From an uncultured Gammaproteobacteria bacterium (GTDB lineage Bacteria > Patescibacteriota > Microgenomatia > UBA8517), in the NCBI GenBank assembly GCA_964427735.1, contig CAYRUS010000002.1, positions 67,734-131,733 of the forward strand: 64,000 nucleotides of DNA, given 5' to 3'. Under the pieces are notes generated by a model. That model was not told the origin of the DNA. It was given only the letters and a program-made list of their open reading frames with translations, and did no database searches. Both the position numbers and the translations under genes were made by a program. Shown piece after piece: positions 10,556 to 31,008 of this stretch; the first letter of the stretch is position 1, and every line of letters starts with the position of its first letter.

Positions 10556-11848
10556 TTAGTTCAAATCTTGGATACTCACCATTTCTGACGAAAGTAATTT
10601 GTTTTTCTTATGGTATTCCTCCAGCAAGAGTTCGGTTTCCCCACTCCAAGTCTTATCAAAACCTACAGGCTCACCGTTTACAATATACAGATTAACAATT
10701 CCGTCGATTGGCAACACCACATTTGTCAGATGCCCATACTGATCTTCCCTTGCTGTATGGTTGAAACCAAAATCATCAGGTATATCTTGATCTGCAAATC
10801 CAGATACAACATTTATATATGAATCTAGTACCCTAAATTCTTTGTTTTCTGTGTCATATTCTGGTCTTACTAACGCAATTTGTGCAGAATCTCCTAAAAT
10901 AGAGAGTATCCACGCCTTTCTACTTATATCCAGTTTTTTGTCTCCTTTTGTCGAATTAAATATCTCAACTGTTTCTTGAATTGCATTAAGCAAATGAAAA
11001 TTTGCAGCAACAATAAGCGCTCTATTTTCCCTTTTCTTTTGAATTTTCTTAGGATCGTCACCAAGTACCTGTTCTATTATTTTTCTACCAGAATCATTAA
11101 TATCCGGCTTTAATATCAGCATTTGGTTGGTGTCTATAGACACCACTTCTATATCGTCAATTCTGGCAGGGCAACGTTTTCTAAACAAAAATTCGGGGAG
11201 GTTAGCGGCCTCTAGTTCTTCTTGTGTAGGCCAATCAAATTGAGCTTCTGATAAATTCACTTTTTTAAGCTGTGTCTGTTTATCTGCTATAACAGTTTTC
11301 TCGTCTCTTGTAGACAATTCGTAGACAGATATCTTTCCACTCGAAGAAACTTTTTCTTTCTCTCCTCTAGTGAGCGCTAGGATGCTTGAACCATATGTTG
11401 TGAATACCCTCCCATTTCTAGAAACTGTAATGTTTTGTTCATCACCTGCCTCTGGTGTGCTTATTGCTACATCTGCATTAATTTTTCCTGAATCAACTAG
11501 ATCTATAAATCTTTTCAATGCTGTCTCATTCAAAAACACACCAGTTACGTTATAACTATTAGCTTCACGGTGATATTGGATAACTGCACCCTTATCCTCA
11601 CCCATTATTGCATCTCCTATTTGTAGTGCTTTAAAAATATCTTCTTTCGAAAATCTATTATTAGAACTTGGCTTAAATTCAATAACAAAAGCTGGTGCTC
11701 TTCCAACACTTCTTACCATTTCTAAGTATCTTTTTCTTTCAGCTTCTAATATGTTGAATTGCTCTGCACTGCTATGATTAAGATCTTTACGAGAGGACTC
11801 CTGAGGTTTACTTTCATCAGGTGTGAATTTAGGATCAAAATCTTCCAT
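10556..11848 (-). CDS. Hypothetical protein (430 aa)
   Basis: ORF track. No motifs recognised. Confidence 0.4.
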   Translation of the reverse strand: MEDFDPKFTPDESKPQESSRKDLNHSSAEQFNILEAERKRYLEMVRSVGRAPAFVIEFKPSSNNRFSKEDIFKALQIGDAIMGEDKGAVIQYHREANSYNVTGVFLNETALKRFIDLVDSGKINADVAISTPEAGDEQNITVSRNGRVFTTYGSSILALTRGEKEKVSSSGKISVYELSTRDEKTVIADKQTQLKKVNLSEAQFDWPTQEELEAANLPEFLFRKRCPARIDDIEVVSIDTNQMLILKPDINDSGRKIIEQVLGDDPKKIQKKRENRALIVAANFHLLNAIQETVEIFNSTKGDKKLDISRKAWILSILGDSAQIALVRPEYDTENKEFRVLDSYINVVSGFADQDIPDDFGFNHTAREDQYGHLTNVVLPIDGIVNLYIVNGEPVGFDKTWSGETELLLEEYHKKNKLLSSEMVSIQDLN

Positions 11849-11972
11849 ACGCTGTTAATTCTATCTCAAGCACGACAATAAGACCAATATTATCTAAAAA
11901 GATGATCATATGATAAAAAGGTAGAAAATAAGATGAGTCCAGTTCAGATTTAATCTGATAAGGTTTTTAAGG

Positions 11973-11978
11973 TATAAT
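11973..11978 (+). promoter_or_regulatory. TATAAT -10 candidate upstream of tRNA-Trp.
   Basis: ggTATAATat 20 nt upstream of the tRNA start. No clear -35. Confidence 0.25.
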
Positions 11979-11998
11979 ATACATGTATTGAAAATTTT

Positions 11999-12074
11999 AG
12001 GGGTGTAGCTTAGTTGGTAGAGCGTCGGTCTCCAAAACCGAAGGTCGCAGGTTCGAATCCTGCCACCCCTGCCA
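11999..12074 (+). tRNA. tRNA-Trp (anticodon CCA), 3' CCA encoded
   Basis: Acceptor AGGGGTG/CACCCCT, anticodon stem TCGGT/ACCGA with loop CTCCAAA, T-arm GCAGG-TTCGAAT-CCTGC, discriminator G plus CCA. Confidence 0.85.
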
Positions 12075-12132
12075 GTTTTTATATTGTAATAACGGCCTTT
12101 TTTCTACCATCTCATTTATAATTTCTATTAAT

Positions 12133-13965
12133 TTAATTATTCCGAAGGATATTATTCACTTGAATGAGTGCAATCCTTAGGTCACTTAAAGCTTGAGTGT
12201 GTTTACCAGAACTTAGGTAGTAGTCATTATTGACGGAATAAATAAATTTTAGATAACACAAAAAGGATAAGGATTTTAAGGCCGATAATTTTAAAAAGAA
12301 TATGCTATCGAGTAAGGTAGGATTGTTTATTTCATTACGACCCGATGTTAAAATTTTCTCAGAAATCTTTAAAGCTTCTTTTTGAAGGCTATCAGGATCA
12401 AAAATTGCACCACCATACATCTTAATTTCTGCTTCCATATCAGCAGAGTGCTTTAGCAAACTTGCGGCTCTTTTAATTGCTGTTTCATAATTACTTATGC
12501 CAGTAAGCCCAAGTCCCTGTATAATATCTCCTCCCAGTTTGCCACCAAGGCTAAAAGTATTGTTTGCAAAGTCTTTAATCAAAGATTCATCTGGCATCGG
12601 TGTAAATGCTTTAACAGGACCTTTGAAATCTGGTCTTGAATATAGGTTATCGATAATACCTACATCTAATAAATTAGTAAGATATTCCTCCATTTGTACC
12701 ATTTCTTCATTAGTTGTGTCACCAAATCCTCTTAAATAGCGTGGATGAACTGAATCAGCGATATCAAAAATCCCTCTAAATTGAGTATACAGATATCTTG
12801 TTACTTTATTAATTCTTAGCTTCTCCATTGCCTGTCTTTCCCATTCTTTGAGATCTCTGTAGCTTGTATAATTTGTTGTGCTAATTTCTAATTTACTATA
12901 ATCCTCTTCTCTTCCAGGTCTATAGTTTCTTGGTTGATAATTATCGCTGGATGCAATCTTATCTAATCGCCTATTAATTTTCTGAACTTCATCTTCTGTT
13001 ACAGCAATCACCTTTGCTTTCTCTCTTTGATAAAGAAGCACCTTCCAGTCATCTTCTGTTAATAGTTTCTCACCATAATTAAGAAACCCCCATAAATTAG
13101 ATGCACTTTTATTTAGCCAAGGAACTAATTTCAACATATTAGGGTTCTTTTTTATCTCATTAAGTTTATATCCTTGAAGCTCAAGATGATGTGCTTCAAC
13201 TATAGCTTGTAACTCCCAGAGCTGCCTAAGTAAACTTGAAAATGATATTCCTTCAGCACTATTATCATAAGGAGTAACAATTTTATTCTTATTTTTATCT
13301 ACTACTTTTGAGATAAGCTGGATTGCCGGAGATGGGTTTTTCAACAACTCTTTTTCAATTCTATAAAGTAATTCATATAGACCTAAATGAGAAGTTGCTA
13401 GATCTTTTGAGCCTGGAAAATCTTCCCCAGATGGTTGAACAAACCAAATTGTAATTTCACCATTATCAACTAATTTTATTCCTGCTATAGAGGACTGTCT
13501 TTTTGGGTTAAAAACTACAAAATCAGCCTGATCTTTGTCTCCTACACTTTGTGGTAGTACAAGCTGATGCAAAAACCCAAAAGTCATACTGTCAGTATTT
13601 AAGCGTGAAGTATCGTGGTCATAAATACTTCTTGCAAAAAAGTTCAAATGTCTTTCACTAAAAGGACTAAATCTATGGTAAGTCTTAACATCGGAATTCC
13701 CTAGATACACTTGCCTTAAATAAAGGTTACCTGTCGATATCTTGTCTAATTCTAATACAGCCTCAGACCCTACTTCATTAATTCGCTTGTCAGCTTCTGC
13801 AATTGGAGTTTCAGTGGCATAAATGTGTTTATTTGGATCTGTTCTAAGGGTAATCGTTCCATAATCAATTATGATAGCACCAAATGGTTTTAAATCACGG
13901 TCTTTGACCTCAGAATCTGGTATTACTCTAAAATTTGTATGATGATTATTCTCTGACTCCAACAC
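12133..13965 (-). CDS. Hypothetical protein (610 aa)
   Basis: Long ORF. No motifs recognised. Confidence 0.45.
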   Translation of the reverse strand: MLESENNHHTNFRVIPDSEVKDRDLKPFGAIIIDYGTITLRTDPNKHIYATETPIAEADKRINEVGSEAVLELDKISTGNLYLRQVYLGNSDVKTYHRFSPFSERHLNFFARSIYDHDTSRLNTDSMTFGFLHQLVLPQSVGDKDQADFVVFNPKRQSSIAGIKLVDNGEITIWFVQPSGEDFPGSKDLATSHLGLYELLYRIEKELLKNPSPAIQLISKVVDKNKNKIVTPYDNSAEGISFSSLLRQLWELQAIVEAHHLELQGYKLNEIKKNPNMLKLVPWLNKSASNLWGFLNYGEKLLTEDDWKVLLYQREKAKVIAVTEDEVQKINRRLDKIASSDNYQPRNYRPGREEDYSKLEISTTNYTSYRDLKEWERQAMEKLRINKVTRYLYTQFRGIFDIADSVHPRYLRGFGDTTNEEMVQMEEYLTNLLDVGIIDNLYSRPDFKGPVKAFTPMPDESLIKDFANNTFSLGGKLGGDIIQGLGLTGISNYETAIKRAASLLKHSADMEAEIKMYGGAIFDPDSLQKEALKISEKILTSGRNEINNPTLLDSIFFLKLSALKSLSFLCYLKFIYSVNNDYYLSSGKHTQALSDLRIALIQVNNILRNN

Positions 13966-14103: not shown

Positions 14104-14652
14104 TTGGAACATCTTGAAGAGGAAAACAGAAGATATGATCAACTGTTGGCGGAAAGATTGGGAGTAAAAACTTCAAAAGACATTAAACGAAGTGATATAG
14201 AAAGAGCTGAAATCGAATATCCAATTCTATTGCGGACATGCTTAGATATTAGAAGATTAGTATATAAAATAAGAGGTTTTAAATGGTCAAATGATAATGA
14301 AAAGCACATTGAATTTGGATATTGGGTTCCCGACCTCAATGATGAAAAAAACCAAGAGTCTCAAACACCAGAAAGTACCACCGCTACAGAAGTAATGAAT
14401 AATATTCTTAAAACCCTCGGTGTAGAACCTTCAAACATAGTTACACTACTACATCAACCTGATGTAAGAATTCAAGAAGGAAACCTACTCAAAGTTCTCC
14501 CTAACAGCAAATCAGAAGAAAGAATACTAGAAAGTATACCAACAAAATTCCCTTCACTCACTACAAATGTATCCTCATATAAAACAGATTTTGGCAATGG
14601 TCGTGTTTCTGATAGTAAAACATTGATTATCAAACTTACTTCAAAAGTCTGA
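14104..14652 (+). CDS. Hypothetical protein
   Basis: ORF track. Confidence 0.35.
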   Translation: MEHLEEENRRYDQLLAERLGVKTSKDIKRSDIERAEIEYPILLRTCLDIRRLVYKIRGFKWSNDNEKHIEFGYWVPDLNDEKNQESQTPESTTATEVMNNILKTLGVEPSNIVTLLHQPDVRIQEGNLLKVLPNSKSEERILESIPTKFPSLTTNVSSYKTDFGNGRVSDSKTLIIKLTSKV

Positions 14653-14891
14653 TAAGAAAATTCTTCAATAATCTTTCCTATTTCATTATAATTTTAGACT
14701 AGATATAGCCACCTAAATACAAACCCGCAAGGATGGTTACAACTACAAAAAAGGTGAATATAAAAATAAATAGCAAAAATAGAAAAAATACAACCAAGTT
14801 ATAAGTAAATATTTTACCTTTCAAAGTATTATGATTCCAAATTTTAATTTACACCATAATAACAATTCTGTTATCATAAAAACTGTAAACA

Positions 14892-15452
14892 ATGATGAGA
14901 CTGCCTATAATTACAATTATCCTCCTTTTCTTCGTTGCTTTTATTCCCATTAAAATCACTAAAGGTCACTTTGTTCAATCAGAAGACGAAATAGAAGTTA
15001 CACTTCATATTAATCCAGATGATAACCCAATCATCGGAGAACCTGCAAAAATATATTTTCAATTCGACGATCCCGAAAACATTATAGCCCCCCAAACGTG
15101 CAACTGTATGGTTTCTATATTTCTTAATAACGAGGAACTTATTTCACAATCTCTTTTTTTAGAAAACGAACAAACGGGATTTGATACTCCAAGCTTGACT
15201 TTTGTGTTTCCTGAAAAAGGTCTTTACCAAATAAAAGTTACCGGAAGTCCAATAAATAACGAAGACTTTAGCGGATTTGCATCAGAGTATAGTTTGAGAA
15301 TTTCCCGCGAACCAGAAAACTCCATCCCCTTCTTAAACACTATTAGTGACACCAAATCCTTAAAAACCATTGTTGTTTATCTTTTTACCATTATGATTGT
15401 TATTTTAATTGCAAATAAAATGATTAATAAAAAAAGAAATATCAATGAATAA
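14892..15452 (+). CDS. Secreted, C-terminally TM-anchored protein. The predicted mature N-terminus begins with His (ITKG|HFVQ), so it may be a CopC-like Cu-binding protein.
   Basis: Signal peptide MMRLPIITIILLFFVAFIPIKI and C-terminal TM IVVYLFTIMIVILIAN. The N-terminal His of the mature protein is an inference. An AGGAGG-type RBS for the next gene overlaps its end. Confidence 0.4.
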   Translation: MMRLPIITIILLFFVAFIPIKITKGHFVQSEDEIEVTLHINPDDNPIIGEPAKIYFQFDDPENIIAPQTCNCMVSIFLNNEELISQSLFLENEQTGFDTPSLTFVFPEKGLYQIKVTGSPINNEDFSGFASEYSLRISREPENSIPFLNTISDTKSLKTIVVYLFTIMIVILIANKMINKKRNINE

Positions 15453-15457
15453 AGGAG

Positions 15458-16081
15458 GTGAATGTTATTAAAAAATTTATTGTAATTTTATTTACTGCTT
15501 TATTTTTTGTTACTGCAACTACTGCTTCAGCACATGTTGTAGTCAAACCTGATAGTGTTGGAGTCGCTCAAAGAGTAAATTTTACAGTCAGTGTCCCTAC
15601 TGAAAAAGAAATACCAACCGTAAAAGTAAGACTGTTAATCCCAGAAGGTCTAAGAAATGTAAGACCTTTAGTAAAACCAGACTGGGACATTGAATTGGTA
15701 AAAGAAGAGACTGAAGTTGGTTCAGAAGAAAGTGGAGTTGTTACTGAAATAATTTGGACAGGAGGTTCGATTCCACTAGATCACAAAGATGAATTTGCTT
15801 TTAGTGCTCAAGCACCTGACACAGAAGATCAGTTAATATGGAAAGCCTATCAAACATATTCAGATGGCACTGTTGTAGCTTGGGAAATCAACCCAAATGA
15901 AAATCTGACAGATTTTTCAGAATCTGGACCTTATTCAACAACTACAGTGGTTGATGATCTAACGAATAAAGGCACATTTTCAACTTGGTTAACATCTGAA
16001 AAAGCATTTTCATTTTCTTTAGCATCTTTAGTAATTTCAACAATATCACTAGTTTTAGTGCTTTCAAGAAAAAGAAAGTAA
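15458..16081 (+). CDS. YcnI/DUF1775-family extracytoplasmic (copper-binding type) protein with a C-terminal TM anchor
   Basis: RBS aaaGGAGGTGaATG. Signal peptide ending ASA, then mature HVVVKPDSVGVAQRVNFTV as in B. subtilis YcnI (AHVSVKP...). C-terminal TM LASLVISTISLVLVL. Confidence 0.65.
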   Translation: MNVIKKFIVILFTALFFVTATTASAHVVVKPDSVGVAQRVNFTVSVPTEKEIPTVKVRLLIPEGLRNVRPLVKPDWDIELVKEETEVGSEESGVVTEIIWTGGSIPLDHKDEFAFSAQAPDTEDQLIWKAYQTYSDGTVVAWEINPNENLTDFSESGPYSTTTVVDDLTNKGTFSTWLTSEKAFSFSLASLVISTISLVLVLSRKRK

Positions 16082-16132
16082 ACAGACTTAGAGTAGATAA
16101 ATAGACTGCTCTATCAATCAAAGAAAAAACCT

Positions 16133-16585
16133 ATGGAAACTTTAAAGAAAATAATTATTTCAATGGTGCTTTTTGTTGTTTACGGATATTATGTATCTAG
16201 ATCTAAATTGGATTTGCCAAAAAACACAAACCCATTATTTCTTAATGCAGAAAGTACTAGTACAAATTTAAACAATTCTTATATTGTTCATGATAGTTTT
16301 ACTTATAATGACGGTGAATACCTAGGCAAAGTAGTTGATGCATTGTATGGTCAAGTTCAAGTAAAGGTTGATATAAGTGGCGGCAAAATTGAAAACATTG
16401 AATTTTTAAAATATCCAGACCACCATTCATACTCAAGACAAATAAACCCTGAAGCCACCTCAATATTGACGACAGAAGCACTAGAAATTCAAAGTGCAGA
16501 AGTTGATATAGTAACTGGTGCCACACAAACTAGTAAAGGCTTTATCGAGTCGATGCAATCTGCTTTAGATGAAGCAAAATCCTAA
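16133..16585 (+). CDS. FMN-binding domain protein with an N-terminal TM anchor and an intact flavinylation motif
   Basis: C-terminal EVDIVTGATQTSKGF matches the Dxx(S/T)GA(T/S) FMN-attachment motif of FMN_bind domains. Confidence 0.7.
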   Translation: METLKKIIISMVLFVVYGYYVSRSKLDLPKNTNPLFLNAESTSTNLNNSYIVHDSFTYNDGEYLGKVVDALYGQVQVKVDISGGKIENIEFLKYPDHHSYSRQINPEATSILTTEALEIQSAEVDIVTGATQTSKGFIESMQSALDEAKS

Positions 16586-17324
16586 CATGAAACTTACAAA
16601 ATTATTAATGGGAATGCCAATTACAATTGAAATTCAGGAGGAAAGCGTTGATAAGAAAATCTTTGACAAGGTTTTTGACTACTTCAAATGGGTAGACAAG
16701 ACTTTTAGCCCATACAAAGACTCAAGCGAGGTTAGTAAATTAAACAACAATCCAGGCTTTAAAATTAGTAGCCATATGGAAGAAATCCTAAACTTATCTA
16801 ACATTACTTTTAACCAAACAAATGGATACTTTCGCGTACATATAAATGGTAAATTTGATCCATCTGGAATCGTTAAGGGTTGGTCTATCCAAAATGCTGC
16901 AAAAATATTATTAAATAAAGGTTATAAAAATTTTTACGTAGATGCAGGTGGCGACATTCAGACATCAGGTTTTAACCACTCAGGTTCAAAATGGAAAGTA
17001 GGTATTAGAAACCCATTTGACACAAAGACGATTGTAAAGATCGTTCATTTGCATGATTCAGCGGTAGCCACATCTGGAAATTACTTTCGCGGAGAACATA
17101 TATTTAATCCCTATTCTCGTAAAAACGACAACAACAATCTGGTAAGTTTAACCGTAGTAGGTCCGAATATTTTTGATGCTGATCGTTTTGCAACCGCAGC
17201 ATATGCCATGGGTAAAGAGTCACTTAATTTTATAGATCGTATCTCTGATTACGAAGCTTTTGCAATATTTGAAGATAGAAAAGTTTTGTACACTAATGGA
17301 TTCAAAAAATACACAACCTCATGA
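16569..17324 (+). CDS. apbE: FAD:protein FMN transferase (ApbE family). An alternative ATG at 16587 is possible.
   Basis: SGIVKGWS and VDAGGDI motifs. AVATSGNYFRGEHIFNP. Overlaps the previous gene end and the next gene start (ATGA), so it is translationally coupled. Confidence 0.8.
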   Translation: MKQNPNMKLTKLLMGMPITIEIQEESVDKKIFDKVFDYFKWVDKTFSPYKDSSEVSKLNNNPGFKISSHMEEILNLSNITFNQTNGYFRVHINGKFDPSGIVKGWSIQNAAKILLNKGYKNFYVDAGGDIQTSGFNHSGSKWKVGIRNPFDTKTIVKIVHLHDSAVATSGNYFRGEHIFNPYSRKNDNNNLVSLTVVGPNIFDADRFATAAYAMGKESLNFIDRISDYEAFAIFEDRKVLYTNGFKKYTTS

Positions 17325-18838
17325 TAAAAATTATTGATGATTTTCTTAATAATATAACCATGTACAGACTGACTCTGTACGGACTAGGTTTACTTGCTGT
17401 TCTTTCTATTGTCTTTGGATTTTTAAACATTCTTCCCTATCCAGGCTTTTTGCTTATGTTTTCCCTTTTTTATATTCTTGTAGTATGTTGGCTTTCTAAC
17501 ATCTTTTTTTCAGAAGCTTTTGGTGTACCAACAAACCGCGAGTCAGTATATATAACTTCCTTAATATTATTTTTGATAATCACTCCTCCTTCTAATGTTT
17601 ATCAACTAACAGTACTGTATTGGGCGGGGATATTAGCAATAGCTTCAAAATTTATATTTGTAATTAATAAAAAACATATTTTTAATCCAGTTGCAATTTC
17701 GTTGTTTATTTTAGGCATCACTATTAATTATGGCGTCAGTTGGTGGATTGGAAATCCAGTTATGTTCCCTGCACTTTTTGTAGTGGGTCTATTGATTGTA
17801 AGAAAGATTAGAAGATTTCATCTTGTAGCCGCGTTTTTTTGTGTAGCACTTCTAACAATAAGCATATTTACAATCAGATCTGGAACACAAAGTATTGATG
17901 TCCTGACAAGGACGATTTTGTCATCTTCGCTTGTTTTTGTTGGGTTTATAATGCTTACAGAACCACTTACCACTCCTCCGACTAAGCATGAACAAATCGT
18001 TTATGGCATATTAGTGGGTCTTCTTTTTGCACCTCGCATACATATTGGTAGTTTTTACTTTACTCCAGAAACTGCTTTAGTTTTTGGAAATATCTTTTCC
18101 TATTTAGTAAGCCCTAAAAAAAGACTTGTATTAAATTTAAAGGAAAAAATAAAACTATCAGATGAGATATATGATTTTTCTTTTGTACCGGATAGCAAGC
18201 TAAATTTTAAAGCTGGTCAGTATTTAGAATGGACTCTACCGCACAAAAACTCGGACGATAGAGGTTTAAGAAGGTATTTAACAATTGCCAGTTCGCCTTC
18301 GGAAGAGATCATGACTTTTGGTATTAAGATACCTAAAAATCCAAGCAGCTTCAAGAAGAAGCTTCTGGAATTGCAAGAAGGAGAAAAAATTTATGCAGGG
18401 CAATTGTCGGGAGATTTTACCTTACCCAAAAACAAAAGTGAAAAGCTTGTGTTTATAGCAGGTGGAATCGGAATTACTCCGTTTAGATCAATCTTGAAGC
18501 ATCTGATAAATACAAATGAAACAAGGGACATTATACTTTTTTATACTTGCTCTGAGGCAGATAGTTTTGTATACCTTGATATTTTTAACCAAGCAAAAGA
18601 AAAGCTAGGAATTAAAACAGTACTTGTACTAACACACAAAGAAAATCTCCCTCAAGATTGGAATGGTGAAACTGGACACCTAACAGCTGAAATTATTCAA
18701 AAACACGCAAATGATTTTGATAAAAGAAAGTACTACATATCCGGACCACACAGCATGGTGGATTCATACAAGAGTTTACTACGTAAAATGAAAATACCTG
18801 GAAAAAATATAATCACTGATTATTTCCCGGGATATTAA
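17321..18838 (+). CDS. Polytopic membrane domain (at least 7 predicted TM helices) fused to a ferredoxin-NADP+ reductase-type FAD/NAD(P)-binding oxidoreductase domain
   Basis: C-terminal RRYLTIASSP (RxYS FAD motif), GQLSGDF and LVFIAGGIGITPFRSIL (NAD(P) GxGxxP). N-terminal half is all hydrophobic helices with an FNP motif. Confidence 0.65.
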   Translation: MIKIIDDFLNNITMYRLTLYGLGLLAVLSIVFGFLNILPYPGFLLMFSLFYILVVCWLSNIFFSEAFGVPTNRESVYITSLILFLIITPPSNVYQLTVLYWAGILAIASKFIFVINKKHIFNPVAISLFILGITINYGVSWWIGNPVMFPALFVVGLLIVRKIRRFHLVAAFFCVALLTISIFTIRSGTQSIDVLTRTILSSSLVFVGFIMLTEPLTTPPTKHEQIVYGILVGLLFAPRIHIGSFYFTPETALVFGNIFSYLVSPKKRLVLNLKEKIKLSDEIYDFSFVPDSKLNFKAGQYLEWTLPHKNSDDRGLRRYLTIASSPSEEIMTFGIKIPKNPSSFKKKLLELQEGEKIYAGQLSGDFTLPKNKSEKLVFIAGGIGITPFRSILKHLINTNETRDIILFYTCSEADSFVYLDIFNQAKEKLGIKTVLVLTHKENLPQDWNGETGHLTAEIIQKHANDFDKRKYYISGPHSMVDSYKSLLRKMKIPGKNIITDYFPGY

Positions 18839-18884: not shown

Positions 18885-19709
18885 CTATTTGTTACTTGAA
18901 AGATCTCCTGAAACTACAAAATAATCAATTATCCATTGCTTTATCCTATGGTGTTTTGATTTAATCCCGCCTACTGTGTTCTCTAGTACATATGCAATCT
19001 CTTTATCTGGCAAACCTGCAAAATATTTTAAAAATATTAGAGTCTTCTCATCCTCCTCTAAAGAATTAATAGCACTAATTAGTGTATTAAGATATTTCTC
19101 TTTGTCTACACCTGAATCTTTACTACTAACTTTAAATAAGTTTTGGACACTAGGATCATCGATATCAACACTCATCAAATATCTGTCACTTCTTTCTTGA
19201 TCCCTATAATACCTAGAAATTTTGCTTTTAGCTATTTTGTACAACCACGCCCTTCTTAAAATATTTTCATCGTATCCTGGATTAGGAACAAAATTTCCAT
19301 ATGTATTATATGCAGACTCAAAAACCTGACTTGTAACATCTTCTGCATCTTGACTATTAGGAAGATGAAATCGAACATAATTAAGAATTCTCTGATGATA
19401 TTGATCAAATATTTCTTCAAACTCCCTTTCCTTTTCTCCTTGTAGTTCTGGATAAACTCTTCTTGTTTCAATTTTCTTTTTTACTGCGTAACCTACTCCT
19501 ACTGCTGCTAGTGTAAAAACAATTGCACCTGCTATTTTTTTTGGGGTTAATTTAAGATGATATTTTTCTAAGACTTTGGTGATTTTATTGTATTGTTCAT
19601 TATCTACACGCAGCTCAACTGGTGTAGAAATTCCATTCTCCTCAAAAAAGATATTTATGGTTACAAAATCTTCTTTTAAGTTATCTGTCTCTTTATAGGA
19701 TTCTTTCAT
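18885..19709 (-). CDS. ECF-type sigma-70 factor (regions 2 and 4) preceded by an ~80-aa N-terminal extension containing a TM helix
   Basis: Region 2 EFEEIFDQYHQRILNYVRFHLPNSQDAEDVTSQVFESAYN. Region 4 LEEDEKTLIFLKYFAGLPDKEIAYVLENTVGGIKSKHHRIKQWI. TM KKIAGAIVFTLAAVGVGYAVKKK. No internal ATG/GTG/TTG between the TM helix and the sigma domain. Confidence 0.6.
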   Translation of the reverse strand: MKESYKETDNLKEDFVTINIFFEENGISTPVELRVDNEQYNKITKVLEKYHLKLTPKKIAGAIVFTLAAVGVGYAVKKKIETRRVYPELQGEKEREFEEIFDQYHQRILNYVRFHLPNSQDAEDVTSQVFESAYNTYGNFVPNPGYDENILRRAWLYKIAKSKISRYYRDQERSDRYLMSVDIDDPSVQNLFKVSSKDSGVDKEKYLNTLISAINSLEEDEKTLIFLKYFAGLPDKEIAYVLENTVGGIKSKHHRIKQWIIDYFVVSGDLSSNK

Positions 19710-19826: not shown

Positions 19827-22800
19827 TTAATTGCTTTTAAGACCGGCTACAAACATATGCATTTTACCGCTAACCGCCTGACCGTTTGTTGTCCCCAAAA
19901 ATCCATTGGAACCGTCTTTTAAGACAGAGCCACAAGAAACGCCTTTAGCACAATGACCAATTTCTCCTCCGCCTTCGTGTCCAAAAATAACGGTATTGTT
20001 GTCCAAAACACTAGTAACTGCGTCTCGAACCTGTGAATATCTGGACTGATCTGGATGACCAGGGACATAAAATAAAACTTCCGGTGATCCACCTAACTCC
20101 GAAACAGTTTCTTGCACAATACGCTTGGATGCATTTACATCTCCTTCAGAGCCAAAAGTTTCACCAATACCTCTTGTCGCAATACTAAAGGATCCCTGTA
20201 CTAAAACTGCAGTTATTGTTCCGGAATTGAAATTTTTGTTGGTTAGGCTTCCGCCATTTATATATGCACCTGATCCAATAATTTTAATTGAATCGGGAAC
20301 TGGATCTCCAAAGGATTGCTTAAGTTCTGGCAAAATCCCTAAAAGGGTTAGTGAGTTGTCATCATAATGACCGGGACCAAATAAATGAATCAAATTTTTC
20401 TTGTTTTTATCTATATGCGGAACCAATAAATTAGCTAAATTCTTTCCTGCACCCAAATAATCCACTACATTATTTGAGTTTCTAATACTAGTACTTACAA
20501 CCTGAACATTTTCTATATTTGTACCTCCGAAAGCAAATATGGAAATTGATCGATTATCATGAGGAACAAATTGCTCTCTTGTAAGTGAATTATAATTTGT
20601 ACTGTTTGTTCCTGCACCTGCAAGCGGTATGCCTGATCCGAATGCGGCCTCAATCTTTTGTACTACTTCATTCCATGATCCGATATTATTATTTACTAAT
20701 ATAATTTTTGGAACTCCTTGCCCATAGGACGTTTTTGCTTCATTAATTGCTTCATCAATCATAGATGTTATTTTTTCGGACGACGGAAGTGTAGCTCCTG
20801 CACTTACAGCATGACCAGAAGACGCTTTTAATTTTGGATTGTCACTACTAGGTGACGAAGTTACTACTGGGGTCGGGTTAGGAGAATCAATAACGTAATT
20901 ATTTAACCAAATTACATAATCAATCCCATCGACTTTACCATTTCCATCAAAATCACCTTTAGATGAACCAGCTGTTGTGTTTGTATCATAATTGACAAGC
21001 CAAACTACATAATCCAAACCGTCCACTATTTCATCTCCATTTGCATCACCTGGAATAGATGGAGTTGATGAAGGCGCTTGAGTTGGAACAGGTGTAGCAT
21101 TTGGATCTGAAGGCTTGGCTTCAATAGCAGCTACAACGTTATCAATATAGTATAAATCACCAACAGGATATACAGGTGAGTCGAGGTACTTAACTAACTC
21201 TTCTCTAGATGCGTTTAAGATTTGTGCTTTTGCCTGAAATAAAGCATGAGTTTGTTGATACGCAGTCATGCCGCCTTCTCCTTGTTGTTCTCTATTTTGA
21301 CCAACAAACCACAAAGGAGCTATTGATTCGTATTTGTTTACAGCTTCTTGAACTTTTGGTAAAGCATTTGTTCTCAAGTGATTTGAAAGTTCAGGAGATA
21401 GTTCCATAAAATTGTACGCAGTGACAAGTGACCAAAAATATCTATCTCCGACACTATTCCCTGTATTTGGTCTTAAATCATAGGTAAATGTTTGAGCTCT
21501 TAAGTTAAGCAGTCTATTTAATTCTGCTTGATGTGCTGAATAAGAACTGCTCGGCTCGCCCGCTAATTTTGCAAGTTCTATGTACCCTTTGTAACCGGTT
21601 ATATAAGCATTGAATGCATGCGGGAAGGACTGTAGATCTGCGTCCGACATTGGAGTTGTTGATTTTAATTTGCTTTTTGCTGCAGCAAATATTTGCTTCG
21701 GATCACCTAATCCCGCCTCTGCATATTTCCACATAGCATAAAAATTTTGAGGTGGAATGACGTACCCTTTGAATGAAGAGTTAGTCGAAGGTCCAAGATT
21801 TTTAATCTTTTCGTACGTCAAAGGTAGAAAATCAAAACCTTCCCTGAATTTTCCATCTTTCCATCCAATATGTGAATATGTGTATGGTGGGAATTGATTG
21901 AACTCGCTTTGAATATAACTTTTTAACTGAGATTGCAGATTCGATGGCAGATAAGGTAACGCTTTGAGCAAAATATAAATCGTGTCACCGGGATTATGCC
22001 AATAATCTAATAAATTATCTCCCAACCAATTTCTTTGCGGGGAATCCAGGCTTCCTGAAATTCCATAGCCGGGTTTTAGATGGCCAGTAGCAATCATTTT
22101 TTGTACTTCCTCAGCAAGAATTGACTTTAGGGTGGACTCAGGAATTATATTTGATGAGGTAACAGGGTTTTTTATTGAACTTGATGATAAAACAGGTGCA
22201 TTAGACCCCGCACCTCCAACTCCAAAAGCTACAAGTGCATTTGACCTAATAACATACATTTTGCCTTTATAAATTGCCGGTCCAACATTGTCACCGTGTT
22301 CATAGTACCAGACTCCGTGCTGTCCGTTAGAAAAATCCCATATGAATTTATAATGTTCTTTTTCATATCCTGAAGGCATTGATGGCGCAGGAGGATTTCC
22401 AACACCATGGACAAACCTCCATTGTCTTGTATTGTCTAAACTGGGGAAAGTTGTATTTGGTTTTGAAATATCCACAGCACCAATAAACCTGTCACAGCAA
22501 AGGTTCCAGTAAACATATCTACCTGCTCCTGAAATTCCTGCTGGTTCATCAGCAGGAAAATGACCGCTTTGCTGAGACATTCTTGAAAAAGGCAAACTAA
22601 TATGAGGCGTACCAACCTTCCAGCCGACCGGAACCGTTGATGCAAAGGTGCTTGTATTTACCATAATCATATTCCTGAAATATGGAACTTGGTCAAATCC
22701 ACTAACAACAGGAGGATAAATTGTTCCATGATCCTGAGTTGCACGAGCTATAGGTGCTGCATCTGGTCTTCCGTCATTGTCCAGATCATAATTTTCCTCA

Positions 22801-23798
22801 CTACCACTGGCTTGGTTTAACACAAAAACAGTTCTAGTATCTCTATTTTCTTCATAATAGTCTAATATACTCTTACCCAGAGGGTTGTTTCGCAAATCTG
22901 CTGTAATTGTTCCATTCACCCAATCACCAGATTCTGTTCCCAACGTTCCTGCAACATATCCTGAACGGTCAGGATTTGTAAAAAGCCATTCATTTTCTAA
23001 ATAAATATTACTATCACCAGAAAAATCAGTACTTGTATTCCTCTCATATTCGGTTTTTGTGAAGATTACTTTGTCCTTATAAACCACCGGCCACCATGAA
23101 TACCAACCCATTGTTGGTAATTTTGTTTTCCAGGCAAGAGATCCGTTCGTATTTAAAGCATAAGCATGACCATCATTAGAACCAAAATATATTTTGCCGT
23201 TAGCGTACGCGGCAGAATGAAGAATCTGTCCCCCGGTTTTGTATTTCCACGCGAGGCTGCCGTTAGTATTTAGTGCATACATATGCTTATCGCGGCTGCC
23301 GATAAAAATTTTGTTTTCTGCAAATAATGGGCTTGTTTCGAATCCCCCATCTGCTGCAAATTCCCAAATTTTGTTCCCATTGCTCGCATTTACTGCATAC
23401 ACCTTTCTATCAAGACCACCAACATACAGCACTCCATTTGCATATGTCGGTGAATGACCCAATGGTAATTCTGTAGGAAACACCCACTTTTCGCTTCCAT
23501 TTTCTGCGTCATAAGCATAAAGTCCTCGTGAAGTTGATACATAAACTTTACCTTCGGCTCCAACCACTTGTACTTTTTGCGGAATGTATGGAACAATTGG
23601 TCTCACCCATAGCTCGTCTAAATTTCCTGCTGAAGGTTCTTCTGATATCCAGCTTGTCCTTTGTGGATTAGCACCTGCTGTTGACCAAGGAGTGTCTTGA
23701 GATTGTGCAGAAACAGAAACTTGGTATTTAATATATATTCCATAAATTAATCCAGACAATACAAAAACAGAAATTATCAGTAAAATTAATTTTCTCAT
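19827..23798 (-). CDS. Very large secreted protein (1323 aa) with an N-terminal PQQ-type beta-propeller, a central domain of unknown fold, an internal type-I dockerin and a C-terminal possible metallophosphatase-like domain
   Basis: Signal peptide. PQQ repeats (GKVYVSTSRGLYAYDAENGSEKW, VLYVGGLDRKVYAVNASNGNKIW, KIFIGSRDKHMYALNTNGSLAW, KIYFGSNDGHAYALNTNGSLAW). Dockerin GDANGDEIVDGLDYVVWLVNYD...GDFDGNGKVDGIDYVIWLNNY. C-terminal VIFGHEGGGEIGH. Confidence 0.55.
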   Translation of the reverse strand: MRKLILLIISVFVLSGLIYGIYIKYQVSVSAQSQDTPWSTAGANPQRTSWISEEPSAGNLDELWVRPIVPYIPQKVQVVGAEGKVYVSTSRGLYAYDAENGSEKWVFPTELPLGHSPTYANGVLYVGGLDRKVYAVNASNGNKIWEFAADGGFETSPLFAENKIFIGSRDKHMYALNTNGSLAWKYKTGGQILHSAAYANGKIYFGSNDGHAYALNTNGSLAWKTKLPTMGWYSWWPVVYKDKVIFTKTEYERNTSTDFSGDSNIYLENEWLFTNPDRSGYVAGTLGTESGDWVNGTITADLRNNPLGKSILDYYEENRDTRTVFVLNQASGSEENYDLDNDGRPDAAPIARATQDHGTIYPPVVSGFDQVPYFRNMIMVNTSTFASTVPVGWKVGTPHISLPFSRMSQQSGHFPADEPAGISGAGRYVYWNLCCDRFIGAVDISKPNTTFPSLDNTRQWRFVHGVGNPPAPSMPSGYEKEHYKFIWDFSNGQHGVWYYEHGDNVGPAIYKGKMYVIRSNALVAFGVGGAGSNAPVLSSSSIKNPVTSSNIIPESTLKSILAEEVQKMIATGHLKPGYGISGSLDSPQRNWLGDNLLDYWHNPGDTIYILLKALPYLPSNLQSQLKSYIQSEFNQFPPYTYSHIGWKDGKFREGFDFLPLTYEKIKNLGPSTNSSFKGYVIPPQNFYAMWKYAEAGLGDPKQIFAAAKSKLKSTTPMSDADLQSFPHAFNAYITGYKGYIELAKLAGEPSSSYSAHQAELNRLLNLRAQTFTYDLRPNTGNSVGDRYFWSLVTAYNFMELSPELSNHLRTNALPKVQEAVNKYESIAPLWFVGQNREQQGEGGMTAYQQTHALFQAKAQILNASREELVKYLDSPVYPVGDLYYIDNVVAAIEAKPSDPNATPVPTQAPSSTPSIPGDANGDEIVDGLDYVVWLVNYDTNTTAGSSKGDFDGNGKVDGIDYVIWLNNYVIDSPNPTPVVTSSPSSDNPKLKASSGHAVSAGATLPSSEKITSMIDEAINEAKTSYGQGVPKIILVNNNIGSWNEVVQKIEAAFGSGIPLAGAGTNSTNYNSLTREQFVPHDNRSISIFAFGGTNIENVQVVSTSIRNSNNVVDYLGAGKNLANLLVPHIDKNKKNLIHLFGPGHYDDNSLTLLGILPELKQSFGDPVPDSIKIIGSGAYINGGSLTNKNFNSGTITAVLVQGSFSIATRGIGETFGSEGDVNASKRIVQETVSELGGSPEVLFYVPGHPDQSRYSQVRDAVTSVLDNNTVIFGHEGGGEIGHCAKGVSCGSVLKDGSNGFLGTTNGQAVSGKMHMFVAGLKSN

Positions 23799-30270: not shown

Positions 30271-30942
30271 TCAACTCTTCATAACTGCATAAACCACAAG
30301 TCTGTGAGAATAATCATTTAATTCAGGAATGTAATTCCCTGTACATGTAATTAGATTTAGCCGTTTCACATCTTTTTGACTGTAAACTTTTTGTATAGGA
30401 AAGTCTTTTTCTGGATAAACTTCTCTTTCTACAATTTCGAAAATCTTTATTTGACCTTTTGAATCAACTATTTTTATTTCATCTCCTAATTTGACATCAC
30501 TTAATCTATAAAAAACACCAGGACTTCCATCCTCAATTTTATAATGACCTGCTAAAACTGCACTTCCTAATTCTCCAGGAGATGTACCGAACTTCCACCA
30601 ACCTACGGTTGAATTATCAGATGGCACACCCATCCTGCCATCAGAAGTTTTCCCCTCTTCAATAACAGGGGCATTAAGCCCAATCTGTTCAATGATAACT
30701 TTTACAGGTATTTCTCTAGTTTTTTCTATTTCTTGAGATTCACTTGTGGCATCACTTGCTTTTACTTCCAAGTTATCAATATTCTTTTCTACAAATTCCG
30801 AAGTGTTGTTTTCTTTTATTTGTTTTTGTTCTTGATCTAAAAAATTATATGAAGTATTTGCCTGGACTTTTAAAAGCAGGACAGGTATCAAAAAAGCTAA
30901 TGGCAGTACTTTAGCAAGTCTCACGGAAATGCATTGTACCAC
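30271..30942 (-). CDS. Sortase family transpeptidase with an N-terminal TM anchor
   Basis: His LAGHY, LNLITCTGN (TLxTC catalytic Cys) and RLVVYA (conserved Arg). Confidence 0.75.
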   Translation of the reverse strand: MVQCISVRLAKVLPLAFLIPVLLLKVQANTSYNFLDQEQKQIKENNTSEFVEKNIDNLEVKASDATSESQEIEKTREIPVKVIIEQIGLNAPVIEEGKTSDGRMGVPSDNSTVGWWKFGTSPGELGSAVLAGHYKIEDGSPGVFYRLSDVKLGDEIKIVDSKGQIKIFEIVEREVYPEKDFPIQKVYSQKDVKRLNLITCTGNYIPELNDYSHRLVVYAVMKS

Positions 30943-31008
30943 AAATTAAAATATATTCACTAAATACAATTTTAGTAAAAGGCTTTTGAAATTTAGAGAA
31001 TAAATATC

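What the first reader, a model, noticed from the sequence alone, without database searches (positions are those of the whole stretch)
14892..18838. Putative extracytosolic Cu/flavin redox module: His-N-terminal secreted protein, YcnI, flavinylation-target FMN-binding protein, ApbE and a membrane FAD/NAD oxidoreductase
Five co-directional, tightly packed genes (RBS-linked or overlapping). Two are exported proteins whose predicted mature N-terminus is His. One is a clear YcnI/DUF1775 homolog (mature HVVVKP…), a family reported to bind Cu(II). One is an FMN-binding-domain protein with the DxxTGAT flavinylation motif. One is the ApbE flavin transferase that installs FMN on such motifs outside the cytoplasm. 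The last is a polytopic membrane protein fused to an FNR-type FAD/NAD(P)H domain (RxYS, GGIGITP) that could feed electrons from cytoplasmic NAD(P)H across the membrane. Together they look like a minimal trans-membrane electron conduit ending at a copper-binding protein, for example a cupric reductase or Cu-handling system. The NQR/RNF-like and flavinylation parts are known individually. Their pairing with YcnI here is the interesting point.
Basis: partly seen in the sequence, partly recalled or inferred. Interest (0 to 1): 0.65.

Follow-up and report, generated by a model that had tools for sequence, protein, structure and literature searches.

The report
Copper-binding pair beside flavin electron conduit
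Two membrane-anchored, probably copper-binding surface proteins sit directly next to an already described three-gene module predicted to carry electrons from NAD(P)H across the membrane, and because relatives of the pair in other tiny uncultured bacteria sit next to a different membrane reductase, this may be a dedicated bacterial copper reductase, which has not been linked to this copper-binding family before.

Summary

The last three genes are the published "NQR/RNF-like" flavinylation system (Meheust 2021, Huang 2024). That system has never been tested experimentally and has no known acceptor.

The first two genes form a separate conserved unit. Gene 1 belongs to a large unannotated family (1231 cluster representatives). 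It has an invariant mature N-terminal His, a second His, an Asp and a CxC motif. It lies directly upstream of YcnI in 10 of 11 informative loci from candidate phyla radiation (CPR) bacteria.

NQR/RNF-like modules rarely neighbour YcnI (1 of 80 other loci, 6.7 kb away). The five-gene order recurs only in the closest relative (L089). However, in 6 of 12 YcnI loci the pair follows a ferric-reductase-type membrane protein, and the two reductase types never co-occur.

This pattern supports, but does not prove, electron delivery to a copper site, that is, a cupric reductase. One caveat: ApbE here and in every related cluster lacks an export signal.

Verdict: a new variant of a known kind, of moderate to high interest.

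The parts
14848..14877 (+). Best sigma-70-like promoter match of the region (TTTACA-18-TATCAT, TG-extended). It lies 15 nt upstream of gene 1 and is a possible promoter for all five genes.
   Evidence: 10 of 12 matches, the top-ranked site. The total number of sites in the region is no higher than in shuffles (27 vs 26.3), so this is weak evidence. No promoter-like or terminator-like site on the + strand lies between YcnI and FMN_bind.
14892..15452 (+). Gene 1 ('g1'), 186 aa. Leader peptide, predicted mature N-terminal His26 (codon 14967-14969), a beta-sandwich ectodomain, and a C-terminal membrane anchor with a basic tail. It belongs to a large unannotated family.
   Evidence: No Pfam, NCBIfam or PDB sequence match. 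1231 cluster representatives at E<=1e-3. Invariant H26, H39, P42, D44, C72, F106, F126 and F129; near-invariant A25, P46, D60, C70. AF2 model pLDDT 86. The Foldseek top 6 include the Cu proteins PmoD and CrdA among generic Ig-like folds. Directly upstream of YcnI in 10 of 11 informative loci.
15458..16081 (+). YcnI/DUF1775 protein, 207 aa. Leader ASA|H26 (codon 15533-15535), a cupredoxin-like ectodomain with the monohistidine-brace residues, and a C-terminal membrane anchor.
   Evidence: PF07987 E=1.9e-24. Matches B. subtilis YcnI structures 7ME6/7MEK at E=1.4e-12. His26 aligns to Bs His27, Glu49 to Glu50 and Trp142 to Trp137. All three residues are invariant in 30 CPR homologues. Topology.
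16133..16585 (+). NqrC/RnfG-like FMN_bind protein, 150 aa. N-terminal hydrophobic anchor (residues 7-21) and flavinylation motif D125-I-V-T-G-A-T131 (Thr131 codon 16523-16525).
   Evidence: PF04205 E=3.9e-10. Motif. Across 49 family members the anchor is flanked by more Lys/Arg on the N side (2.24 vs 1.02; 31 cases against 4), which predicts N-in/C-out.
16569..17324 (+). Short ApbE-type FAD:protein FMN transferase, 251 aa, with no signal peptide, lipobox or membrane helix.
   Evidence: PF02424 E=7.2e-41. No hydrophobic N-terminus here or in about 45 ApbEs of related clusters, which start directly at the conserved MGMP motif.
17321..18838 (+). Fusion protein, 505 aa. An NqrB/RnfD-like polytopic membrane domain (about residues 1-265) lacks the NqrB/RnfD flavinylation Thr. 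It is fused to a cytoplasmic FNR-type FAD/NAD(P)H domain (about residues 272-505; RYLTIAS at 318, GGIGITP at 381).
   Evidence: PF03116 2.2e-8, PF00175 1.5e-17, PF00970 0.024. NCBIfam hits to flavin reductases and NqrF. No [ST]GA[ST] in the membrane domain in 75 of 77 homologues. More than 7600 homologues, mostly named Patescibacteria.

Best explanation
The cluster is two conserved units placed side by side.

Unit A (g1 + YcnI) is a pair of membrane-tethered, outward-facing proteins. Each begins, after leader cleavage, with a histidine. YcnI carries the complete His/Glu/Trp Cu(II) site of B. subtilis YcnI. g1 has its own invariant His-His-Asp-CxC set.

Unit B (FMN_bind + ApbE + NqrB/RnfD-FNR fusion) is the published NQR/RNF-like system. 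Its proposed steps are:
1. The cytoplasmic FNR domain oxidises NAD(P)H.
2. Electrons cross the membrane through the NqrB-like domain.
3. They reach the FMN that ApbE attaches covalently to Thr131 of the small NqrC-like subunit on the outer face.

My proposal is that in this organism the outer FMN reduces Cu(II) held by YcnI and/or g1 to Cu(I). The five genes would then be an NAD(P)H-driven cupric reductase serving copper capture or hand-off at the cell surface. In most other CPR lineages a haem-type ferric-reductase-domain protein would do the same job for the same pair.

Shown: gene order, domain identities, conserved residues, the conserved g1-YcnI pairing, and the alternative reductase neighbours.

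Inferred: Cu binding by these two proteins, the outward location of the FMN domain, electron transfer from FMN to Cu, and the physiological purpose.
For: 1. All domains and motifs are present.
2. Unit B meets the published definition of the NQR/RNF-like system, whose authors proposed one-way NAD(P)H-to-outside transfer.
3. g1 is directly upstream of YcnI in 10 of 11 informative independent CPR loci.
4. Of 12 independent YcnI loci, 9 have a transmembrane redox module close by. Six have a Ferric_reduct-type protein directly upstream of g1 (L090, L092, L094, L099, L100, L102). Two have the NQR/RNF-like trio directly downstream (window, L089). One has it 6.7 kb away (L025). The two module types never co-occur.
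5. The five-gene order is retained in L089 although the proteins have diverged to 51-67% identity.
6. The FRD-type partners carry extracytoplasmic His-rich motifs and two Ig-like repeats with H..HxHP motifs. Long g1 forms carry a C-terminal His/Cys-Cys tail. Both fit metal handling.
7. An orthologous RR-HK-HlyD-ABC-FtsX block flanks the fusion gene in L001, the trio in L025 and the FRD-g1-YcnI cluster in L099.
8. Topology estimates put both Cu-site ectodomains and the FMN domain outside and the FNR domain inside.
9. The best promoter-like site precedes g1, and no terminator-like site separates the units.
10. The copper field states that no reductase is known to be associated with the Ycn system (PMC13344008).
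Against: - Among 80 other NQR/RNF-like loci only one (L025) has g1-YcnI within 10 kb, and unrelated genes lie between them. YcnI is therefore not the general partner of this module.
- The window and L089 belong to one clade, so the direct adjacency counts as one evolutionary event.
- L089 has a 200-nt gap with a good promoter-like TTGACA-N18-TATGTT before FMN_bind. The units may be transcribed separately.
- ApbE lacks any export signal in every cluster examined. How an outward-facing FMN domain becomes flavinylated is unexplained.
- The 47 window ORFs scanned include no copper importer (CopC/CopD, MFS) and no cuproenzyme.
- Three YcnI loci (L095, L096, L097) have no recognisable reductase nearby.
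- g1 has no detectable sequence homology to any known Cu protein, and its structural matches are to a generic fold.
- No experiment exists for any NQR/RNF-like system.
Confidence: 0.4

Rival explanations
1. Two unrelated modules happen to be neighbours. The NQR/RNF-like trio passes electrons to some other acceptor that is not encoded nearby, such as Fe(III), a soluble oxidant, a thiol or methionine-sulfoxide repair system, or general NAD(P)+ regeneration. The g1-YcnI pair handles Cu(II) without any dedicated electron input from the trio.
For: - The trio is the conserved unit, and it stands without YcnI in 79 of 80 other loci.
- Its most frequent neighbours are a two-component system and an efflux pump, not a metal-binding protein.
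- L025 keeps the two units 6.7 kb apart.
- L089 has a promoter-like site between them.
- The published work links some NQR/RNF-like clusters to the iron transporter VIT1.
- B. subtilis YcnI works by Cu(II) exchange with YcnJ, with no reductase known.
Against: - The five-gene order is retained in L089 despite 33-49% protein divergence.
- The gap in the window is only 51 nt, with no terminator-like site.
- g1-YcnI independently recruits another type of transmembrane electron carrier in six lineages and is never seen with both types. That is hard to explain if the pair needs no electrons.
Confidence: 0.3
2. The units are coupled, but the copper site is catalytic rather than cargo. g1 and/or YcnI would act as a histidine-brace copper enzyme kept reduced by the conduit. 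It could reduce O2 or H2O2 as a minimal surface NAD(P)H oxidase that regenerates NAD(P)+ or removes oxygen. Alternatively it could act like a lytic polysaccharide monooxygenase on host or own envelope polymers.
For: - g1 has a mature N-terminal His and an invariant His39. From the model's strand positions I infer that His39 lies opposite His26 on the neighbouring strand of a beta-hairpin (secondary structure; inference).
- Histidine-brace proteins need an external reductant (PMC10952591, listed).
- PKD-domain proteins, often polymer-binding, follow YcnI in L094, L100 and L102, and one precedes the reductase in L092.
- The window encodes no recognisable cuproenzyme that would justify a copper import route.
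Against: - There is no sequence or significant structural match to any LPMO or oxidase.
- YcnI's characterised role is Cu(II) binding and exchange.
- The invariant CxC and the Cys-Cys tails look more like Cu(I) or thiol chemistry than an oxygenase site.
- No substrate-binding module is present in g1 or YcnI.
Confidence: 0.15
3. The flavin module is not extracytoplasmic at all. Because ApbE has no export signal, the FMN_bind domain is flavinylated and stays on the cytoplasmic face. The fusion protein would then work as a membrane-bound cytoplasmic NAD(P)H oxidoreductase with no access to the exported YcnI and g1.
For: - None of about 45 ApbEs in these clusters has a signal peptide or lipobox.
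- Signal-less ApbE in Klebsiella pneumoniae is cytosolic and flavinylates a cytoplasmic enzyme (PMC12052999).
- The window's own FMN_bind anchor is short (15 residues), and its flanking charges are nearly balanced.
Against: - Across 49 family members the anchor shows a clear positive-inside bias for N-in/C-out (31 against 4).
- The architecture matches NqrC/RnfG, whose FMN domain is periplasmic (established knowledge of NQR and RNF).
- The published AlphaFold-multimer model docks the subunit at the site that holds the outer-face FMN in NqrB.
Confidence: 0.1

Closest known systems
NQR/RNF-like flavinylation-associated system (Meheust et al. 2021 eLife, PMC8238504; Huang et al. 2024 mSystems, PMC11334425)
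   Same: - An NqrB/RnfD-like membrane domain fused to an NqrF-like NAD-binding domain.
- An adjacent NqrC/RnfG-like FMN_bind subunit carrying the flavinylation motif.
- An adjacent ApbE.
- The membrane domain lacks the NqrB/RnfD flavinylation Thr.
- Found mainly in CPR and Actinobacteria.
- The same FMN_bind-ApbE-fusion gene order occurs in most of the 80 loci examined.
   Different: The published description names no acceptor beyond a VIT1 iron transporter in 6 clusters. Its main text does not mention DUF1775, YcnI or copper. Here the module directly follows a g1-YcnI pair. I also find that the ApbEs of these clusters lack export signals; I did not see this discussed in the passages I read.
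Bacillus subtilis ycnKJI copper acquisition system (YcnI + YcnJ CopC-CopD-YtkA)
   Same: The YcnI homologue has the same architecture: a leader, N-terminal His, Glu, Trp, and a C-terminal membrane anchor. It matches the solved YcnI structure. As in B. subtilis, it is paired with a second extracytoplasmic protein that starts with His after leader cleavage (g1 here, the CopC domain of YcnJ there).
   Different: - No CopC, CopD or YcnK homologue is present in the window.
- g1 is not detectably homologous to CopC.
- In B. subtilis no reductase is associated with the system, whereas here and in relatives a transmembrane reductase is adjacent.
Ferric reductase domain (FRD) superfamily: MsrQ/YedZ, eukaryotic FRE/STEAP/NOX metalloreductases, and the 'MsrQ-like' flavinylation-associated systems
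   Same: These proteins carry electrons across a membrane to an outside acceptor, including Cu(II) and Fe(III) in eukaryotes. In six CPR lineages an FRD-type protein sits directly upstream of g1-YcnI, the pair that the NQR/RNF-like trio directly follows in this window.
   Different: The window itself has no FRD protein. Its carrier is flavin-based and brings its own NAD(P)H domain. The CPR FRD proteins have no NAD(P)H domain. Instead they have two C-terminal Ig-like repeats.
CcoG, the only characterised dedicated bacterial cupric reductase (Marckmann et al. 2019, cited in PMC13344008)
   Same: The proposed activity is the same: membrane-bound Cu(II) to Cu(I) reduction serving copper trafficking.
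   Different: CcoG is an Fe-S protein acting on the cytoplasmic side for cbb3 oxidase assembly (my recollection of the cited work, not tested here). It shares no domain with the genes here.

Membership tests
NQR/RNF-like system (Meheust 2021 definition) | One protein with an N-terminal PF03116 (NqrB/RnfD) membrane domain and a C-terminal PF00175 NAD-binding domain | tested here: met
   PF03116 E=2.2e-8 (34.3 bits, cut-off 27.7) at residues 152-259. PF00175 E=1.5e-17 at residues 378-483.
NQR/RNF-like system (Meheust 2021 definition) | Lies in a flavinylation-associated cluster (ApbE and/or FMN_bind within five genes) | tested here: met
   FMN_bind and ApbE are the two genes immediately upstream and overlap one another.
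NQR/RNF-like system (Meheust 2021 definition) | [quoted passage not shown] | tested here: inconclusive
   SignalP was not available. FMN_bind has an N-terminal hydrophobic anchor with a family-wide positive-inside bias. ApbE has none.
NQR/RNF-like system (Huang 2024) | Membrane domain lacks the flavinylated Thr of NqrB/RnfD | tested here: met
   no [ST]GA[ST] in the window protein's membrane domain. It is absent in 75 of 77 homologues.
YcnI / DUF1775 | PF07987 domain above the gathering score | tested here: met
   87.2 bits against a cut-off of 25.
YcnI / DUF1775 | Monohistidine brace: mature N-terminal His, Glu50-equivalent and Trp137-equivalent | tested here: met
   the alignment to 7ME6 gives His26, Glu49 and Trp142. 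All three are invariant in 30 CPR homologues. Leader cleavage at ASA|H is predicted, not shown.
YcnI / DUF1775 | C-terminal membrane anchor | tested here: met
   hydrophobic segment at residues 184-202 followed by RKRK.
YcnI / DUF1775 | Binds Cu(II) 1:1 | not testable with these tools
   Needs protein biochemistry.
ycnKJI-type operon | Neighbouring CopC-CopD (YcnJ) and YcnK repressor | tested here: not met
   No CopC, CopD or YcnK hit among the 47 window ORFs scanned.
ApbE flavin transferase, extracytosolic type | PF02424 domain | tested here: met
   E=7.2e-41.
ApbE flavin transferase, extracytosolic type | N-terminal lipoprotein or secretion signal | tested here: not met
   there is no hydrophobic N-terminus. 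The protein starts 13 residues before the conserved MGMP motif. The same holds in about 45 related clusters.
ApbE substrate (FMN_bind) | PF04205 domain with the D-x-x-[ST]-G-A-[ST] motif | tested here: met
   E=3.9e-10, with DIVTGAT at residues 125-131.
Histidine-brace copper proteins (CopC, LPMO, PmoF-type), considered for g1 | Mature N-terminal His plus a second conserved His positioned to chelate Cu | tested here: inconclusive
   H26 follows a conserved Ala/Gly at -1, and H39 is invariant. Their juxtaposition is only inferred from the strand positions in the model.
Histidine-brace copper proteins (CopC, LPMO, PmoF-type), considered for g1 | Sequence or clear structural homology to a known member | tested here: not met
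   No Pfam or PDB sequence hit. Foldseek hits to PmoD and CrdA have E about 5e-4 and TM 0.59-0.69 normalised by target, among generic Ig-like folds.

The most novel reading that the evidence does not exclude
The g1-YcnI pair plus a dedicated transmembrane reductase (flavin-based here, haem-based elsewhere) is a previously unrecognised, widespread surface copper redox machine of CPR bacteria. Its copper centre would be catalytic. It could be a minimal terminal oxidase or NAD(P)H oxidase that lets these fermentative, respiratory-chain-poor episymbionts dispose of electrons or oxygen. Alternatively it could be an LPMO-like oxidative tool used on the host envelope.
Probability: 0.12. Interest if true: 0.85.

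Novelty: new variant of a known kind. Interest (0 to 1): 0.6.

Why it matters
The NQR/RNF-like system is known only from bioinformatics. It has no experimentally tested function and no known acceptor. This locus and its close relative offer a concrete candidate acceptor.

For copper biology, the step that turns Cu(II) captured by YcnI/CopC-type proteins into usable Cu(I) is openly acknowledged as unknown. [quoted passage not shown] Finding YcnI, together with a new N-terminal-His partner family, repeatedly beside two unrelated kinds of transmembrane reductase would make that question directly testable with a handful of small recombinant proteins.

It would also assign a role to a family of more than 1000 sequence clusters that currently has no annotation, in a bacterial radiation whose surface biochemistry is almost unexplored.

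Tried and rejected
- **Word-indexed homologue search for g1.** It found only the protein itself. The exhaustive HMMER search was needed.
- **Single-sequence AF2 model of g1.** Confidence was poor (pLDDT 64) and its Foldseek matches were meaningless. The MSA-based model replaced it.
- **g1 as a diverged DUF1775 paralogue.** Rejected. hhalign aligns only the leader and the Ala-His junction.
- **g1 as a homologue of the Ig-like repeats of the FRD-type proteins.** Not supported (probability 23%).
- **Sequence matches for g1.** Profile against PDB sequences gave none. Pfam on 56 family members gave only sub-threshold Ig-like or PKD hits.
- **A Rosetta-stone fusion of g1 to a reductase.** Not found. 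The one long fusion (P0300) is to an acyltransferase.
- **Recurrent extracytoplasmic neighbours of the 80 NQR/RNF-like loci.** None was found, only a two-component system, an efflux pump, an MFS transporter and MsrB.
- **Copper genes in the window.** None among the 47 ORFs scanned.
- **Supplementary file 1 of the eLife paper.** It lists the neighbours of all 127 published clusters, but it was cut when stored, so I could not check it for PF07987.
- **Organism name.** The cluster look-up gave no name for the source organism.

Full report
**1. The observation**

The region 14892-18838 holds five co-directional ORFs exactly as described.
- Gene 1 (g1) ends 5 nt before the GTG start of the second gene, which is preceded by AGGAGG.
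- The second and third genes are 51 nt apart, with no hairpin between them.
- The third and fourth genes overlap by 17 nt. The fourth and fifth overlap by 4 nt.

The Pfam hits are all well above the curated cut-offs:
- DUF1775, E=1.9e-24.
- FMN_bind, 3.9e-10.
- ApbE, 7.2e-41.
- Last protein: NQR2_RnfD_RnfE 2.2e-8 plus NAD_binding_1 1.5e-17, with a weak FAD_binding_6 hit.

NCBIfam places the C-terminal half of the last protein with NAD(P)H-flavin reductases and NqrF. The flavinylation motif is DIVTGAT at residues 125-131. The FNR motifs are RYLTIAS (318) and GGIGITP (381).

The window has low G+C (about 34%). The best homologues are named Patescibacteria/CPR. The rest of the window carries housekeeping genes such as NusG, L1, RNase HII and UppS, along with many ORFs that match no family. 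It is therefore chromosomal DNA of a CPR-like bacterium. The source organism carries no name in the collection.

**2. The last three genes are a known system**

Meheust et al. 2021 (PMC8238504) defined the 'NQR/RNF-like system'. Its marker is a protein with an N-terminal NqrB/RnfD domain and a C-terminal NqrF-like NAD-binding domain, sitting in a cluster with FMN_bind and/or ApbE. [quoted passage not shown] They proposed one-way electron flow from NAD(P)H to the extracytosolic FMN domain.

Huang et al. 2024 (PMC11334425) added two points. The membrane domain lacks the Thr that is flavinylated in NqrB/RnfD. An AlphaFold-multimer model docks the small subunit's flavinylation site next to the flavin pocket of the membrane domain.

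The window meets these criteria. I confirmed the missing Thr motif here and in 75 of 77 homologues. In 80 metagenome loci retrieved with an alignment of the fusion protein, FMN_bind-ApbE-fusion is plainly the conserved unit. The family is very large, with more than 7600 proteins at E<=1e-10. No experimental study of it was found.

**3. The first two genes are a separate conserved unit**

YcnI:
- The YcnI homologue aligns to the solved B. subtilis YcnI (7ME6/7MEK, E=1.4e-12).
- His26 aligns to His27, Glu49 to Glu50 and Trp142 to Trp137.
- These are the residues of the monohistidine brace that binds Cu(II) (PMC12362106).
- All three, and the Ala at position -1, are invariant in 30 CPR homologues.
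- The protein also has the C-terminal anchor that YcnI function requires.

g1:
- It has no Pfam, NCBIfam or PDB sequence match.
- The word-indexed search found nothing, but an exhaustive HMMER search found 1231 cluster representatives at E<=1e-3.
- Family members come in a short form (about 180 aa) and a long form (about 275 aa).
- The family has an almost invariant Ala|His leader junction. It also has an invariant His39, Pro42, Asp44, Cys72 (with Cys70 in over 90%), Phe106, Phe126 and Phe129.
- With the family alignment, AlphaFold gives a confident model (pLDDT 86) of a beta-sandwich followed by the anchor helix.
- Foldseek finds mostly generic Ig-like domains. However, two of the six best matches are extracytoplasmic copper proteins: PmoD (6CPD) and H. 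pylori CrdA (9LL2/9LL4). E is about 5e-4, which is suggestive only.
- Long-form members add a second membrane helix and a tail with His-rich and Cys-Cys motifs.
- g1 is not a diverged DUF1775. Only the leader and the Ala-His junction align.

**4. How the two units relate across genomes**

Starting from the fusion protein:
- Only 1 of 80 other loci (L025) contains g1-YcnI.
- There the pair lies 6.7 kb upstream of the trio, with unrelated genes in between.

Starting from YcnI, I examined 12 independent loci including the window:
- g1 lies directly upstream of YcnI in 10 of 11 informative loci.
- The NQR/RNF-like trio directly follows YcnI in the window and in L089.
- L089 is the closest relative available (fusion 67%, ApbE 62%, YcnI 55%, FMN_bind 51% identity). 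This is conserved synteny within one clade, not a second independent event.
- L089 also has a 200-nt gap with a promoter-like TTGACA-N18-TATGTT before FMN_bind.
- In six other lineages (L090, L092, L094, L099, L100, L102) the gene directly upstream of g1 encodes a Ferric_reduct-type membrane protein.
- The Pfam evidence for this is E=7.7e-8 for L092, precomputed hits for L099 and L100, and full-length homology of the others.
- The roughly 520-aa form adds a seventh helix, a conserved extracytoplasmic H-x-Q-H motif and two Ig-like repeats with an 'H..I.VD....F.H.HP' motif. It has a weak YtkA-like hit.
- The FRD-type and NQR/RNF-like modules never occur together next to the pair.
- Three loci (L095, L096, L097) have neither module.

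There is one further link. An orthologous RR-HK-HlyD-ABC-FtsX block lies next to the fusion gene in L001, flanks the trio in L025, and follows FRD-g1-YcnI in L099. The histidine kinases are 39-44% identical over their full length.

**5. Interpretation**

The g1-YcnI pair looks like an extracytoplasmic metal (most likely copper) handling unit. It is repeatedly encoded with a device that brings electrons across the membrane. In most lineages that device is a haem-type FRD protein. In the window's clade it is the flavin-based NQR/RNF-like module, which carries its own NAD(P)H domain.

This pattern of alternative, mutually exclusive partners is the best evidence that the pair receives electrons. 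The simplest chemistry is reduction of bound Cu(II) to Cu(I). This is thermodynamically easy for a reduced flavin (general knowledge). It is also the step the copper field says is missing for the Ycn pathway (PMC13344008).

The numbers are small, however. The NQR/RNF-like link rests on one clade plus one 6.7-kb proximity. If a single-copy module were placed at random in a 1-Mb genome, the chance of lying within 7 kb is about 1.4% per locus. One hit among ten independent other loci is therefore not by itself significant. The FRD association (6 of 12, always in the same position) is the robust part.

**6. An unresolved problem**

ApbE here has no signal peptide, lipobox or membrane helix. The same is true of about 45 ApbEs in related clusters, which start directly at the conserved MGMP motif.

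Characterised extracytosolic ApbEs are lipoproteins. Signal-less ApbE in Klebsiella is cytosolic (PMC12052999).

Yet the FMN_bind subunits have an N-terminal anchor with a clear positive-inside bias (Lys+Arg 2.24 on the N side against 1.02; 31 cases against 4). They also share the architecture of NqrC/RnfG, which argues for an outward-facing FMN domain.

Either flavinylation precedes membrane insertion, or ApbE reaches the outside by an unrecognised route, or the FMN domain is cytoplasmic. The last option would break the proposed link to YcnI. I rate it at about 10%.

**7. Surroundings**

The gene upstream (14104-14652) matches no family. Downstream, in convergent orientation, lies an ECF-type sigma factor with an N-terminal extension that contains a membrane helix. 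Beyond it are very large surface proteins.

None of the 47 window ORFs scanned is a copper transporter or a cuproenzyme. The destination of any Cu(I) produced is therefore unknown. This keeps open the more adventurous reading that the copper site is catalytic.

**8. Verdict**

- The conduit is already known.
- Its juxtaposition with a conserved g1-YcnI pair is a new variant that I could not find described.
- The wider association of that pair with transmembrane reductases appears to be new and is testable.
- Interest: 0.6.

Noticed in passing
window 16569-17324; ApbE genes of L006, L010-L088: Every ApbE encoded in an NQR/RNF-like cluster that I examined (about 45) lacks a signal peptide or lipobox and starts directly at the conserved MGMP or E-A-I-G-T motif. 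The partner FMN_bind subunits look outward-facing. Where flavinylation takes place in these systems is unexplained.
   Followed up: partly
L092 3553-5109, L094 3879-5450, L100 4915-6465, L102 2565-4130 (also L099 5380-6456, L090 4754-5437): A CPR protein family of about 520 aa combines a Ferric_reduct-type membrane domain, a seventh helix, an extracytoplasmic H-x-Q-H motif and two Ig-like repeats with an H..HxHP motif. It always lies directly upstream of g1-YcnI. It has no NAD(P)H domain, so its electron donor is unknown.
   Followed up: partly
L001 7694-12709; L025 6581-8252 and 11560-13800; L099 7658-12617: An orthologous block (OmpR-type response regulator, histidine kinase, HlyD-like adaptor, ABC ATPase, FtsX/MacB permease) lies beside the NQR/RNF-like genes in two loci and beside FRD-g1-YcnI in a third. 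A two-component system is the most frequent neighbour of NQR/RNF-like loci (9 loci). This may point to a shared regulon.
   Followed up: partly
P0242, P0249, P0356 (long-form g1 family members): Long-form g1 proteins (about 275 aa) add a second membrane helix and a C-terminal tail with His-rich and Cys-Cys motifs (for example HDHNHHTSEHACCMP). These look like an extra metal-binding site.
   Followed up: no
L002, L045, L053, L064, L068, L071, L076, L080, L085, L087, L088: A second subfamily of NQR/RNF-like clusters, mostly with ApbEs of about 290 aa, has FMN_bind-like subunits with V-[AS]-G-S-S-L-T in place of the canonical [ST]-G-A-[ST] motif. The modified residue would be a Ser if these subunits are flavinylated at all.
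   Followed up: no
L094 6695-7561, L100 7648-8481, L102 5740-6654, L092 2675-3556: A PKD-domain protein of about 280-300 aa follows YcnI in L094, L100 and L102. In L092 one lies upstream of the reductase. The commonest CPR arrangement is therefore a four-gene cluster. The window lacks this gene.
   Followed up: no
window 18885-19709 (- strand): An ECF-type sigma factor (274 aa) has a roughly 90-residue N-terminal extension containing a predicted membrane helix. It is convergent with the fusion gene. The actinobacterial locus L002 also has a sigma-70-family gene inside its NQR/RNF-like cluster (L002 4628-5296).
   Followed up: no
L002 2752-4275 and 5974-7494: A Mycobacteriales MAG carries two paralogous NqrB/RnfD-FNR fusion genes 1.7 kb apart, with a single ApbE.
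   Followed up: no
L029 9203-9595 and two other loci: A methionine-R-sulfoxide reductase (MsrB-like) gene neighbours the NQR/RNF-like fusion gene in three loci.
   Followed up: no
window 19827-26581 (- strand): Two very large predicted surface proteins lie here. One is 1323 aa with PQQ-like beta-propeller repeats and a dockerin-like Asp-rich segment. The other is 927 aa with a weak DUF5060 hit. Two sortase genes sit at 30271-31611.
   Followed up: no
window 10556-13965 (- strand): Two long ORFs (430 and 610 aa) just upstream of the cluster have no family match at all.
   Followed up: no
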